The position numbers were made by a program, and so were the translations under genes. DNA of 32,000 bases from Patescibacteria group bacterium. GTDB taxonomy: Bacteria > Patescibacteriota > Patescibacteriia > 2-01-FULL-39-33. This document shows, one piece after another, positions 26,381-29,473 of the stretch (positions are counted from its first letter, which is position 1; each line of letters starts with the position of its first letter). The notes under the pieces were generated by a model. That model saw nothing but the letters and a program-made list of their open reading frames with translations. It did not search any database and was not told the origin of the DNA. The DNA is taken from NCBI GenBank assembly GCA_041649575.1, contig JBAZMW010000003.1, positions 90,001-122,000 on the forward strand. Reading direction: 5' to 3'.

Positions 26381-27082
26381 TTAATTCGACCGTAAATAAC
26401 AACTTTTGACCTGCTGGCCGGCTAAACGCAAAAAATTATTTAATTCCTTGGGACTGAAGCTTTTTCCTTTAAAATCAGAGCCGACCAGCTTGTCCCGAAA
26501 AATAAAATTTTGTAAGTAGTATTTCTCTGCGCCTTTTATAGTCTTGAGCATTTTTTTAAAATCGCTCACCCGGTGCAGGCCTTTAACCAGTGTGCTACGA
26601 AACTCGTAGGGCAAACCGCTGGTTTTGATAATTTTAATACTGGCCGCTAGCTTAGTCGAGTCAACCTTTACGCCACAAAATCTTTCATAATCATCTAAAG
26701 GGCCCTTGATGTCCATGGCTAAATAATTAACTAATTTTTTGTCAATTAATTTTTTTAAGACTGCCGGCAAAAGCCCATTAGTATCAATTTTTATTTCATA
26801 ACCATCTTTTTTCAAACGACGACAAAAACCAAACAGGCCCCTCTGCATTAACGGTTCACCTCCCGTAATCACCACGCCGTCAAGATATTTTTTTCGATCG
26901 GATAAAAAATTAATCGTTTTTTTGACTGATCGCCTAGAATCTGCCTTGGCCAGCTCGGGCAAAACCAGCTCGGGATTATGACAAAAAGAGCAGCGCATAT
27001 TACAACCACTGGTAAATATAATCGCTGCCACTTTTTGCGGATAATCCAGTAGGGTGACTGGTTGTAACCCGCCAATAATCAT
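26381..27082 (-). CDS. nrdG: Anaerobic ribonucleotide reductase activating protein (radical SAM)
   Basis: CNMRCSFCHNPE (CxxxCxxC) and GGEPLMQ, adjacent to nrdD. Confidence 0.9.
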   Translation of the reverse strand: MIIGGLQPVTLLDYPQKVAAIIFTSGCNMRCSFCHNPELVLPELAKADSRRSVKKTINFLSDRKKYLDGVVITGGEPLMQRGLFGFCRRLKKDGYEIKIDTNGLLPAVLKKLIDKKLVNYLAMDIKGPLDDYERFCGVKVDSTKLAASIKIIKTSGLPYEFRSTLVKGLHRVSDFKKMLKTIKGAEKYYLQNFIFRDKLVGSDFKGKSFSPKELNNFLRLAGQQVKSCYLRSN

Positions 27083-27087
27083 AAATC

Positions 27088-27237
27088 TTAAATTTCGGAA
27101 CTGACCGCCCTAAACGGTTTGCGATCATCGTATTCCGATTGCTTGCCGGCATTCCAAGAATCAACCGGCCGCAAATAACCGACGACCCGGGAGTAAACCT
27201 CACAAGGCTGACGCCTTACCTTTTTGTCATCTTCCAT
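27088..27237 (-). CDS. 49-aa ORF encoding the detached C-terminal glycyl-radical segment of NrdD (below the ORF-track cutoff)
   Basis: Hand translation gives MEDDKKVRRQPCEVYSRVVGYLRPVDSWNAGKQSEYDDRKPFRAVSSEI*. RVVGY is the glycyl-radical motif and WNxGK the conserved NrdD C-terminal signature. Confidence 0.7.
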   Translation of the reverse strand: MEDDKKVRRQPCEVYSRVVGYLRPVDSWNAGKQSEYDDRKPFRAVSSEI

Positions 27238-27265
27238 ATTAAAAAGTTATTTTTATTAATATATC

Positions 27266-29311
27266 TTACAGAGGTAATTTTTCTTCTTGTTCCCGGATAA
27301 AACCGATTTCCTCATCACAAACAGGACAAAAACGATGTTCACCGGAAAGATAACCGTGTTTGGGACAAATAGAAAAAGTCGGTGTTAACGTGTAATAAGG
27401 CAAACGAAAATTTTCGGCGATTTTCCTCACCAGCTTTTTGGTACTTTCGATGTTTGGCATTTTTTCCGCCAAAAAACCGTGCACCACGGTGCCGCCAGTA
27501 TATTTGACCTGCAACGGGTCTTGTTTTTCCATCACTTCAAAAATGTCTTCGGAAAAATTAACGGGGAGGTGGGAGGAGTTGGTATAATAAGGCGCTGCTC
27601 CTTTTTCTCGATAAGCGTCTTCATTGGCCACCACTATATCTGGGTATAACTCTTTATCCTTCTTGGCAAAACGATAAGTGGCGCCTTCGGCTGGAGTGGC
27701 CTCCAAATTATACAGCTGGCCGTCTTCCTCTTGATATTTTGCTAAACGTTGCAGCATAAAATCCATGACTTTCAAGGCGAAGTCCTGGCCTTCAGGAGTG
27801 GAAAGCGGCCGATTTAAAAAGTTAATCATGGCTTCGTTCATACCGTTGATGCCGATGGTATTGAAATGGTTTTTCCAATACTCGCCAAACCTTTCCTTAA
27901 TCTCCTTAAGATAAAATTTACTATAAGGATAAAGCCCCTGCTCTGTAAAAGTTTCTAAAATATCGCGTTTTAATTTCAGGCTCTGACGCGCCAAATCCAT
28001 AGTCTGGCCGAGCCGGCTGAAAAAAGCGTCTTTGGTTTTTGATAAATAACCGATCCGCGGCAAATTAATAGTCACCACTCCTATTGAACCGGTCAAGGGA
28101 TTAGCGGCAAAAATTCCGCCGCCACGCTTTTTTAATTCACGATTATCCAATCGCAGGCGACAGCACATGCTGCGGGCATCTTCGGCTTTCATGTCAGAAT
28201 TCACAAAATTGGCAAAATAAGGTATGCCATACTTGGCGGTCATTTCCCAAACCGGATCCAGAACTTTATTTTCCCAGTTAAAATCTGCGGAAATATTATA
28301 AGTGGGAATCGGGAAAGTAAAAACACGGCCGTTAGCATCGCCTTCCAACATTACCTCGGCAAAAGCCTTATTAAGCATATCCATTTCCGGCTGGAACTCT
28401 TTGTAAGCTTCTCTTTGCGGCAAGCCACCAATAACTACCGACTCATTGGCCAGAGTGGTAGGACAAATTAAATCAAAAGTTAAATTAGTAAACGGCGTTT
28501 GAAAGCCAACCCGGGTGGGAACGCTCATATTAAAAACAAACTCCTGCATGGCTTGCTTAACCGCTTTTTCATCTAGATTGTCATAACGAATAAAAGGAGC
28601 GAGCAGAGTGTCAAAATTGGCCAAAGCCTGGGCCCCGGCAGCCTCGCCTTGTAAGGTATAAAAAAAGTTAACAATCTGACCCAGAGCAACCCTTAAGTGT
28701 TTAGCCGGCTTACTGTTTACCTTGCCATCAACACCGCCGAAACCCAACCGCAAGACGGCTTGCAAATCCCAACCACAGCAATAAACCGCTAAAATCTGCA
28801 AGTCATGAAGATGAATGCTGCCGTCAATGTGCGCTTCGCGAATCTCTTGAGGATAGATTTTATTAAGCCAATAGTGAGAGCTGACCGCCGAAGCCACGTG
28901 ATTATTCAATCCTTGCAAAGAATAGCTCATGTTGGCATTCTCTTTGACTCGCCAATCCAATTGTTTCAAATAGCCGTCGATAATATCATTGGAATCCAGC
29001 ATTTTTTTCATGTCTCTGAGCTGGGCATGCTGGGCTCGATAGATAATATAGGCTTTGGCAGCCTTGACCAGACCTTCTTTAATCAAAGTTTCCTCGACTA
29101 TATCCTGGATTTCCTCAATCGCCGGAATAGAACGGGGGTGAAACTTACTATTAAGAATTTGAACGGCTTTATCGGATAACTCAAGGGCTAGTTTTTCGTC
29201 GTCCCGACCAACTGCTTTCAGGGCCTTGTAAATCGCCTGGACGATTTTGTTCTGGTCAAAGTCAACAATACTGCCGTCTCGCTTTTTAACCTGTTTGATT
29301 TGGGTATCCAT
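27266..29311 (-). CDS. nrdD: Class III (anaerobic) ribonucleoside-triphosphate reductase large subunit, truncated before the glycyl-radical loop
   Basis: ATP-cone N terminus (VKKRDGSIVDFDQNKIVQAI), catalytic core (...SMCCRL...), and a terminus after the Zn-ribbon region (...CPKHGYLSGEHRFCPVCDEE...). Confidence 0.92.
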   Translation of the reverse strand: MDTQIKQVKKRDGSIVDFDQNKIVQAIYKALKAVGRDDEKLALELSDKAVQILNSKFHPRSIPAIEEIQDIVEETLIKEGLVKAAKAYIIYRAQHAQLRDMKKMLDSNDIIDGYLKQLDWRVKENANMSYSLQGLNNHVASAVSSHYWLNKIYPQEIREAHIDGSIHLHDLQILAVYCCGWDLQAVLRLGFGGVDGKVNSKPAKHLRVALGQIVNFFYTLQGEAAGAQALANFDTLLAPFIRYDNLDEKAVKQAMQEFVFNMSVPTRVGFQTPFTNLTFDLICPTTLANESVVIGGLPQREAYKEFQPEMDMLNKAFAEVMLEGDANGRVFTFPIPTYNISADFNWENKVLDPVWEMTAKYGIPYFANFVNSDMKAEDARSMCCRLRLDNRELKKRGGGIFAANPLTGSIGVVTINLPRIGYLSKTKDAFFSRLGQTMDLARQSLKLKRDILETFTEQGLYPYSKFYLKEIKERFGEYWKNHFNTIGINGMNEAMINFLNRPLSTPEGQDFALKVMDFMLQRLAKYQEEDGQLYNLEATPAEGATYRFAKKDKELYPDIVVANEDAYREKGAAPYYTNSSHLPVNFSEDIFEVMEKQDPLQVKYTGGTVVHGFLAEKMPNIESTKKLVRKIAENFRLPYYTLTPTFSICPKHGYLSGEHRFCPVCDEEIGFIREQEEKLPL

Positions 29312-29445: not shown

Positions 29446-29473
29446 ATTATAGCACTCCCAAAATGGCTGTCAA
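29446..29473 (-). promoter_or_regulatory. nrdD promoter TTGACA-16-TGC-TATAAT
   Basis: On the reverse strand the -35 is at 29473-29468 and the -10 at 29451-29446, preceded by TG. It lies about 130 nt upstream of the nrdD ATG. Confidence 0.55.

What the first reader, a model, noticed from the sequence alone, without database searches (positions are those of the whole stretch)
27088..27268. Class III ribonucleotide reductase with its glycyl-radical segment encoded as a separate 49-codon ORF
The 681-aa NrdD ORF ends ...CPKHGYLSGEHRFCPVCDEEIGFIREQEEKLPL*. That is just after the Zn-ribbon region and before the glycyl-radical loop that is essential for catalysis.

A 49-codon ORF (27237-27088) starts 28 nt downstream in another frame. 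It reads MEDDKKVRRQPCEVYSRVVGYLRPVDSWNAGKQSEYDDRKPF... and carries the RVxGY radical-glycine motif and the WNxGK signature that normally form the last ~40 residues of NrdD. nrdG starts 6 nt after it.

The AT-rich spacer has a TAA in the NrdD frame and another TAA six codons upstream of the small ORF's ATG in its own frame. A single-base indel therefore cannot fuse the two.

Either the enzyme is assembled from two polypeptides, or the gene is decaying. A two-part enzyme would allow the oxygen-cleaved radical segment to be replaced, as the stand-alone glycyl-radical protein GrcA/YfiD does for pyruvate formate-lyase.
Basis: partly seen in the sequence, partly recalled or inferred. Interest (0 to 1): 0.65.

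Follow-up and report, generated by a model that had tools for sequence, protein, structure and literature searches.

The report
Two-piece anaerobic ribonucleotide reductase (split NrdD)
This ultra-small bacterium encodes its only enzyme for making DNA building blocks in two pieces, with the roughly 50-residue segment that carries the catalytic glycyl radical made as a separate small protein; relatives conserve this layout widely, and I found no paper that describes it.

Summary
On the minus strand, a 681-aa nrdD (29311-27266) ends just after its zinc ribbon. A 28-nt AT-rich spacer has stops in both relevant frames. A 49-aa ORF (27237-27088) in another frame carries the RVVGY glycyl-radical loop, and nrdG follows 5 nt later.

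It is not an assembly error, a pseudogene or recoding.
- All 27 relatives' loci examined keep two ORFs. Gaps are 15-171 nt, all three relative frames occur, and stops are TAA, TGA or TAG.
- The new C-terminus and the small ORF's start (MEG[DE]) are conserved.
- dN/dS is about 0.07-0.09.
- In a 401-genome Patescibacteria sample, 72 of 115 glycyl-motif matches lie in small frames.
- The split also occurs in high-GC non-CPR bacteria, where the small ORF has a strong Shine-Dalgarno sequence.
- This genome has one copy of the small gene and no class I or II RNR, so the two-chain enzyme must work.

The GrcA-like "replaceable part" idea is plausible but untested. Here the peptide is the regular subunit, not a spare. 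I found no paper describing a split NrdD.

This scan noted the same arrangement earlier on other DNA: 445 notes in at least 433 genomes.

Verdict: a new variant of a known kind.

The parts
27266..29311 (-). nrdD core subunit, 681 aa. It has an ATP-cone (aa 7-96), the class III RNR barrel with the ENANM flap (aa 124) and the finger-loop CC (aa 383-384), and the zinc ribbon CPKH-x9-CPVC (aa 649-665). It has a conserved new tail, DEEIGFIREQEEKLPL. It has no glycyl-radical loop.
   Evidence: (NF006126 scores 1031.9 bits against a cut-off of 548).
27317..27367 (-). Codons of the zinc-ribbon ligand motif C649-x2-H652-x9-C662-x2-C665. The break lies 16 residues after the last ligand.
   Evidence: The T. 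maritima NrdD zinc ribbon (CxxxHx6CxxC) sits between the last barrel strand and the glycyl loop (PMC4493059).
27238..27265 (-). Intergenic spacer of 28 nt, AT-rich. It has TAA codons in the nrdD frame and in the small ORF's frame. It has no promoter-like or terminator-like site.
   Evidence: Relatives' spacers are 15-171 nt and occur in all three relative frames.
27088..27237 (-). Glycyl-radical subunit, 49 aa. It has the conserved Cys12, the motif S16-R-V-V-G20-Y with the radical Gly20 (codon 27180-27178), and W28-N-x-G-K.
26381..27082 (-). nrdG, the radical-SAM activase, 233 aa.
   Evidence: TIGR02495 NrdG2 scores 199.3 bits against a cut-off of 131. Radical_SAM domain.
29446..29473 (-). Consensus sigma-70-type promoter (TTGACA-16-TG-TATAAT, 12 of 12) upstream of nrdD. 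It probably drives the operon nrdD, small ORF, nrdG.
   Evidence: This is a pattern match only.

Best explanation

The 681-aa chain holds the ATP-cone, the catalytic barrel and the complete zinc ribbon. The 49-aa chain is only the C-terminal glycyl-radical loop plus its trailing helix.

The two genes and nrdG are co-transcribed from one promoter, and each is translated from its own ATG.

I infer the following mechanism. The peptide docks non-covalently into the barrel. NrdG abstracts a hydrogen from Gly20. The glycyl radical then generates the thiyl radical on the finger-loop cysteine, as in single-chain NrdD.

The break falls in a linker between the zinc ribbon and the glycyl loop. In some fused relatives this linker is already long.

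Shown: two ORFs, their conservation, purifying selection, wide distribution, and that this is the sole RNR in the genome.

Inferred: assembly of the two chains, activation of the peptide by NrdG, and catalysis.
For: 1. The two ORFs tile the family profiles exactly.

2. In 27 relatives' loci across family, order and class, the two-ORF layout is kept. Gaps are 15-171 nt, the relative frame is 0, 1 or 2, and stops are TAA, TGA or TAG. The large ORF's tail CD[ED]EIG[FY]xREQEEKLP[LI]* and the small ORF's head MEG[DE] are conserved. The Gly codon of the head varies (GGT, GGC, GGA, GGG), so selection acts on the protein.

3. dN/dS is 0.088 for the new tail and 0.072 for the small ORF's core.

4. There are 579 stand-alone small proteins (E <= 0.01). 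The 120 I read all start with Met and all have [RK]xxCEVYSRVVGY.

5. In a sample of 401 genomes of the phylum, 72 of 115 glycyl-motif matches lie in open frames under 130 aa. In 38 of 40 such loci inspected, a large nrdD frame ended just upstream.

6. The same split occurs in non-CPR bacteria of 56-64% GC. There a strong Shine-Dalgarno sequence (GAGAGGTGAAGAGATG, GATGGAGGTCAAACATG) precedes the small ORF.

7. The genome (G000) is 97.9% complete. It has no PF02867 (class I or II RNR) and only one glycyl-motif locus. Of the 71 split genomes in the sample, 58 likewise show no PF02867.

8. Fused homologues exist with a long linker of the same kind, for example P0197: CPICDEEIG-LKKSAKAKSLERKRTR-CEVYSR. 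The AlphaFold2 model of P0197 has a mean pLDDT of 81.9. It shows a coil at 667-673 between two short helices, then the glycyl hairpin.

9. The small ORF's AT-rich leader is typical here. Only 5 of 26 window genes have a Shine-Dalgarno-like motif.

10. There is one strong promoter upstream of nrdD. No promoter or terminator lies between the three genes.
Against: - There is no direct evidence that the peptide is made, binds the core or carries a radical.
- A free 5.6-kDa peptide has no independent fold to protect a glycyl radical, so tight docking has to be assumed.
- The organism might also salvage deoxynucleosides, which weakens the 'sole RNR, therefore functional' argument.
Confidence: 0.88

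Rival explanations
1. Exchangeable 'radical cartridge'. The fission is adaptive because oxygen cleaves glycyl-radical enzymes at the radical glycine. With a split enzyme only the 49-aa peptide is lost. A fresh peptide then re-arms the intact 681-aa core, as GrcA/YfiD does for pyruvate formate-lyase. This refines the best explanation by giving a reason for the split. It does not exclude it.
For: - The spare-part principle is established for PFL (PMC13450708, PMC12288474).
- Split genomes have a second RNR class less often than fused ones: 13 of 71 against 21 of 40 have PF02867.
- At least three independent fissions occurred at or near the same boundary: types A, B and C.
- Related Patescibacteria with an intact fused nrdD carry an extra stand-alone 86-89 aa zinc-ribbon plus glycyl-loop gene before nrdG. 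This shows that glycyl modules acting in trans on NrdD are selected for.
Against: - Here the peptide is the only glycyl module and exists as a single copy within the operon, so it is not a spare.
- The association with a lack of other RNRs is confounded by shared ancestry.
- Fission within an already long linker could be neutral.
- No experiment exists.
Confidence: 0.25
2. Programmed recoding. Ribosomes bypass or frameshift across the spacer and make one fused NrdD chain.
For: The two ORFs are adjacent, on the same strand, and only 28 nt apart.
Against: - Spacers in relatives range from 15 to 171 nt, occur in all three relative frames, and contain several stops.
- No conserved take-off or landing codons were seen.
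- The ATG and the Met-Glu-Gly head are conserved at the protein level.
- High-GC relatives have a canonical Shine-Dalgarno sequence before the small ORF.
Confidence: 0.03
3. Pseudogene. The nrdD gene is decaying after a disruptive insertion.
For: The essential glycine is not on the large chain.
Against: - The large ORF gives a full-length family match above the curated cut-off, with no other lesions.
- dN/dS is about 0.07-0.09.
- The layout is conserved in dozens of genera.
- It is the only RNR in a 97.9% complete genome.
Confidence: 0.02
4. Assembly or sequencing error that created a false stop and frameshift.
For: None specific. AT-rich spacers can be error-prone.
Against: - Independent assemblies of 27 or more relatives, and hundreds of database entries, show the same two-ORF layout with different spacers.
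- Several stops in both frames would each need its own error.
Confidence: 0.01

Closest known systems
Single-chain class III ribonucleotide reductase NrdD with activase NrdG (phage T4 1H78; Thermotoga maritima 4COI/4U3E; Prevotella copri 8P23)
   Same: - ATP-cone, barrel, NxN flap, finger-loop cysteines (CC, as in T. maritima) and the Cys/His zinc ribbon.
- The RVVGY glycyl loop with WNxGK.
- An adjacent NrdG.
   Different: The glycyl-radical loop is on a separate 49-aa polypeptide, not at the C-terminus of the same chain. Both chains have new, conserved termini at the break.
GrcA/YfiD of E. coli (and Y06I of phage T4), autonomous glycyl-radical cofactors that rescue oxygen-cleaved pyruvate formate-lyase
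   Same: A small stand-alone protein that carries a glycyl-radical loop homologous to the C-terminus of a large glycyl-radical enzyme. It is presumably activated by that enzyme's activase.
   Different: - GrcA is a spare for an enzyme that keeps its own glycyl domain. Here the core has none, so the peptide is obligatory.
- The enzyme family differs (RNR, not PFL).
- The protein is 49 aa without a folded domain, against 127 aa for GrcA.
- A 2026 review states that spare parts are known only for formate lyases (PMC13450708).
Split class II RNR NrdJa/NrdJb of Pseudomonas aeruginosa (Crona et al. 2015, cited in PMC9669993)
   Same: An RNR catalytic chain naturally encoded as two adjacent ORFs. The C-terminal, cysteine/zinc-containing part is a separate protein.
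   Different: - A different RNR class and cofactor (B12).
- A different split point.
- NrdJb is a large folded protein. It does not carry the radical site.
Long-linker fused NrdD homologues (for example P0197, P0188, P0178, P0187 from metagenomes)
   Same: The same subfamily, with the same CPxCD.EIG signature after the zinc ribbon and the same R..CEVYSRVVGY.
   Different: One continuous chain. A linker of 10-40 residues replaces the stop, spacer and start.

Membership tests
Class III RNR (NrdD) | NRDD catalytic barrel domain matched above the curated cut-offs | tested here: met
   PF13597 scores 608.5 bits (cut-off 26.2). NF006126 scores 1031.9 bits (cut-off 548). TIGR02487 scores 525.5 bits (cut-off 326).
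Class III RNR (NrdD) | Finger-loop cysteine(s) that carry the thiyl radical | tested here: met
   SMCCRL at aa 381-386 aligns with the CC of T. maritima NrdD.
Class III RNR (NrdD) | Zinc ribbon between the last barrel strand and the glycyl loop | tested here: met
   C649-x2-H-x9-C662-x2-C665 aligns with the T. maritima zinc motif (PMC4493059). Metal binding itself was not tested.
Class III RNR (NrdD) | C-terminal glycyl-radical motif RVxGY on the same polypeptide | tested here: not met
   The large ORF stops at profile position 532 of 562. The motif is on the separate 49-aa ORF. The pair is therefore a two-chain variant of the family.
Class III RNR (NrdD) | Cognate radical-SAM activase NrdG encoded nearby | tested here: met
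   TIGR02495 scores 199.3 bits (cut-off 131). The gene starts 5 nt after the small ORF.
Class III RNR (NrdD) | Anaerobic NTP reduction with a glycyl radical detectable by EPR | not testable with these tools
   This needs biochemistry.
GrcA-type spare-part protein | Small stand-alone protein homologous to the glycyl-radical C-terminus of a large glycyl-radical enzyme | tested here: met
GrcA-type spare-part protein | The parent enzyme keeps its own glycyl-radical domain, so that the small protein is a replacement | tested here: not met
   The only nrdD in G000 lacks the loop, and the genome has only one glycyl-motif locus. This feature is met in other Patescibacteria loci: L031 and L102-L104.
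GrcA-type spare-part protein | Restores activity to the oxygen-cleaved enzyme | not testable with these tools
   This needs biochemistry.
Split class II RNR (NrdJa/NrdJb) | B12-dependent class II barrel (PF02867) split into two ORFs | tested here: not met
   No PF02867 match anywhere in G000. The resemblance is by analogy only.

The most novel reading that the evidence does not exclude
The 49-aa chain is a consumable, exchangeable radical cartridge. NrdG arms it. After oxygen cleaves it at Gly20, the fragments leave and a fresh peptide re-arms the undamaged 681-aa core. A class III RNR would then be cheaply repairable. This would explain why the split form predominates in ultra-small bacteria that have no other RNR. 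It would also be the first spare-part logic for a glycyl-radical enzyme outside pyruvate formate-lyase.
Probability: 0.25. Interest if true: 0.85.

Novelty: new variant of a known kind. Interest (0 to 1): 0.6.

Why it matters
- All characterised class III RNRs, and all structures, are single chains with the radical glycine tethered to the barrel.
- A natural enzyme whose radical site sits on a detachable 5.6-kDa peptide would open several experiments:
  - how the activase reaches the glycine;
  - how the glycyl domain docks and undocks;
  - whether oxygen damage can be repaired by subunit exchange.
- The last question is stated as open in a 2026 review (PMC13450708).
- The split also affects annotation. 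Pipelines call the 45-60 aa ORFs "anaerobic ribonucleoside-triphosphate reductase" or miss them. The 680-aa genes then look complete although they lack the catalytic glycine.
- For Patescibacteria it concerns what is often their only route to dNTPs.

Tried and rejected
A natural long-linker fused homologue was folded instead.

3. I asked whether Cys12 of the small chain (PCEVYSR) is an invention of split forms that staples the chains through zinc. I rejected it as specific to split forms, because many fused relatives have the same Cys (CPxC-x2-5-CEVYSR). Its role stays unknown.

4. I asked whether the tail IGFIR is a degenerate copy of the VGYLR radical motif. The only support is a MAFFT misalignment, and the spacing from CPxC does not fit. 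I dropped the idea.

5. The MAFFT alignment A1 misplaced the query's glycyl loop. I rebuilt it as A2 and A3.

6. I built a tree to count fissions. Deep nodes are weak. Parsimony needs 9 changes of state, and well-supported branches force only about 2 for type A. I therefore claim only at least 3 independent fissions, from the distinct junction types A, B and C.

7. A Pfam scan of the 322-aa insertion in relatives' nrdD found no intein model. The intein call rests on boundary motifs.

8. Literature searches for a split NrdD or a spare part for NrdD found nothing.

Full report
**Observation**

On the minus strand the window holds three genes in a row.
- nrdD runs 29311-27266 (681 aa).
- A 49-aa ORF runs 27237-27088.
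- nrdG runs 27082-26381 (233 aa).

nrdD ends ...CPKHGYLSGEHRFCPVCDEEIGFIREQEEKLPL-TAA. A 28-nt AT-rich spacer follows. The small ORF starts one base out of frame and reads MEDDKKVRRQPCEVYSRVVGYLRPVDSWNAGKQSEYDDRKPFRAVSSEI.

In the small ORF's own frame, TAA codons lie 4, 6 and 7 codons upstream of its ATG. No single indel can therefore fuse the genes.

The two products tile the family profiles end to end.
- Pfam NRDD: 1-532 and 531-561 of 562.
- NF006126: 2-654 and 649-682 of 684.
- nrdG matches TIGR02495 above its cut-off.

**Where the break lies**

The large chain keeps the ATP-cone, the barrel, the ENANM flap, the finger-loop CC (aa 383-384) and the whole zinc ribbon, C649-x2-H-x9-C662-x2-C665.

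In T. maritima NrdD the zinc ribbon (CxxxHx6CxxC) is inserted between the last barrel strand and the C-terminal loop that carries the glycyl radical (PMC4493059). The break here is therefore exactly at the boundary between the zinc ribbon and the glycyl loop. The small protein is only that loop plus its trailing helix.

**Not an error, a pseudogene or recoding**

The window is contig 3 of a 0.92-Mb, 97.9%-complete genome. The nearest database relatives of the large chain are named Candidatus Buchananbacteria, within Patescibacteria.

Of 29 relatives' nrdD loci whose C-terminal end could be read (family, order, class), 27 keep two ORFs and 2 are fused.
- The gap is 15-171 nt.
- The relative frame is 0, 1 or 2.
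- The stop is TAA, TGA or TAG.

Within the window's family both new termini are conserved. The large-chain tail is CD[ED]EIG[FY]xREQEEKLP[LI]. The small-chain head is Met-Glu-Gly-[Asp/Glu], with all four Gly codons in use.

dN/dS is 0.088 for the tail and 0.072 for the small ORF's core.

Variable spacers and frames, with several stops, argue against bypassing or frameshifting.

The AT-rich leader without a Shine-Dalgarno sequence is the norm in this genome: only 5 of 26 genes have one.

A 12-of-12 consensus promoter lies upstream of nrdD. No promoter or terminator lies between the three genes. They are probably one operon.

**Distribution**

A search restricted to small proteins found 579 stand-alone relatives (E <= 0.01). 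The 120 best listed are 43-77 aa, all start with Met, and all read [RK]xxCEVYSRVVGYLRPVxxWNxGK.

In an even sample of 401 genomes of the phylum, 111 have the glycyl motif. Of 115 matches, 72 lie in open frames under 130 aa and 43 in large frames. I inspected 40 of the small-frame loci. In 38 a large nrdD frame ended just upstream.

Most are one junction type, type A. The large chain ends CPxCD.E[IL]G[YFW] plus a variable tail. The small chain begins with Met, then 8-30 residues, then [RK]xxCE[VI][YW][ST]R[VI][VM]GY.

The same arrangement occurs outside Patescibacteria.
- One locus is on a 64%-GC contig with arabinofuranosidase, sulfatase and alpha-2-macroglobulin genes.
- Another is in an Anaerolineae MAG with nrdR upstream.
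- In both, a strong Shine-Dalgarno sequence precedes the small ORF.

Two further junction types show independent fissions.
- Type B breaks inside the second zinc knuckle...GEHYEC...* followed by M..KCGKKTLVYSRVVGY. The zinc site would then be shared between the chains. It forms its own clade next to fused genes.
- Type C is a different NrdD subfamily. Its small ORF carries CPFCG plus ISRVVGYY.

**How the fission arose**

Fused relatives come in two kinds.
- A short linker: CPxC-x2-5-[CT]EVYSR.
- A long linker with the type-A signature, for example P0197: CPICDEEIG-LKKSAKAKSLERKRTR-CEVYSRVVGY.

AlphaFold2 on P0197 gave a mean pLDDT of 81.9. The model shows:
- a short helix over CDEEIGL (660-666);
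- a coil at 667-673;
- a second helix at 674-680;
- a hairpin (685-690 and 693-696) with the radical glycine at its tip.

The fission therefore cut (or a fusion joined) a surface linker.

The tree of the 218 columns before the zinc ribbon interleaves split and fused genes, but its deep nodes are weak. I claim only at least three independent events.

**Function**

G000 has no class I or II RNR (PF02867; the control genomes matched) and only one glycyl-motif locus. The two-chain enzyme is its only de novo route to dNTPs.

In the phylum sample, 58 of 71 split genomes show no PF02867, against 19 of 40 fused genomes. Fisher's p is 2.6e-4, but relatives are not independent.

I infer that the peptide docks in the barrel, that NrdG abstracts a hydrogen from Gly20, and that catalysis then proceeds as in single-chain NrdD. 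In the window's family the large-chain tail is acidic and the small-chain head is basic. This may help docking, but it is speculation.

**The spare-part idea**

For pyruvate formate-lyase, GrcA/YfiD replaces the oxygen-cleaved glycyl domain. [quoted passage not shown]

Here the peptide is obligatory, not spare. A split enzyme would nevertheless lose only 49 residues to oxygen. I rate this benefit as plausible (0.25) but untested.

A true candidate spare exists in other Patescibacteria. There are 305 clusters of 86-89 aa proteins, each with its own CxxC...CxxC ribbon plus a glycyl loop. In four loci they sit between an intact fused nrdD and nrdG.

**Literature and earlier scan notes**

Searches for a split NrdD or a spare part for NrdD found no description. 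The known split RNR is class II NrdJa/NrdJb (PMC9669993).

This scan noted the same arrangement before on other DNA: 445 notes in at least 433 genomes, including spirochaetes, proteobacteria, archaea and phages. The window is therefore one more member of a widespread but apparently unpublished variant.

**Limits**

- The joined chain could not be folded.
- No coordinates, proteomes or experiments were available.

Noticed in passing
L031:3542-3808 (G117), L102:4001-4261, L103:4001-4267, L104:4001-4267: In Moranbacteria/Pacebacteria-like genomes an intact fused nrdD, with its own TEVYSRVVGY loop, is followed by a stand-alone 86-89 aa ORF and then nrdG. The ORF has its own CxxC...CxxC zinc ribbon and a near-identical glycyl loop. 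There are 305 protein clusters of this kind. It is a candidate true GrcA-like spare part for class III RNR.
   Followed up: partly
L033 (G091), L087 (G162), L090 (G140), L093 (G182): A second kind of split lies inside the second zinc knuckle. The large chain ends ...GEHYEC(xx)*. The small chain starts M..KCGKKTLVYSRVVGYHNPV. The zinc site would have ligands from both chains. These loci form their own clade (SH-aLRT 99).
   Followed up: partly
L034 (G151), L094-L097 (G080, G105, G129, G052): A third split occurs in a different NrdD subfamily. The large chain is about 813 aa. The small ORF is about 70 aa and carries CPFCGSxNVYGISRVVGYYSPINNWN.
   Followed up: partly
P0148 aa 272-593; L024-L026 (G010, G022, G013); also G006 and G019 near aa 385: Some close relatives carry an in-frame insertion of about 322 aa in nrdD at VGFQ|CLSGDT...ITGN|TPFTN. 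It has intein-like boundaries and LAGLIDADG-like motifs, but no Pfam intein hit. A second insertion site lies near residue 385.
   Followed up: partly
small ORFs of L004, L008-L011, L013, L014, L026, L030; P0006, P0010, P0020 and others: Many small subunits, and the stand-alone spares, end in cysteine pairs (CGCG, CSCNC, GCC, CASC). These recall the C-terminal redox-shuttle cysteines of class I and II RNRs. The window's copy has none.
   Followed up: no
window 27244-27253 and relatives' spacers: A palindromic TTATTAATAA-like motif recurs 10-25 nt upstream of the small ORF's ATG in several family members. It may be only AT-rich leader sequence with stops in all frames.
   Followed up: no
L032 (G384): A split nrdD (589 + 46 aa) lies next to a fused paralogue of 774 aa. 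In the paralogue the radical motif reads RVVGK (Tyr replaced), and CEVYSR reads CMVYSR.
   Followed up: no
phylum sample: Genomes with a split NrdD less often hold a class I or II RNR than genomes with a fused NrdD: 13 of 71 against 21 of 40. Those that hold both mostly belong to the CEVWTRVMGYHRPV subfamily.
   Followed up: partly
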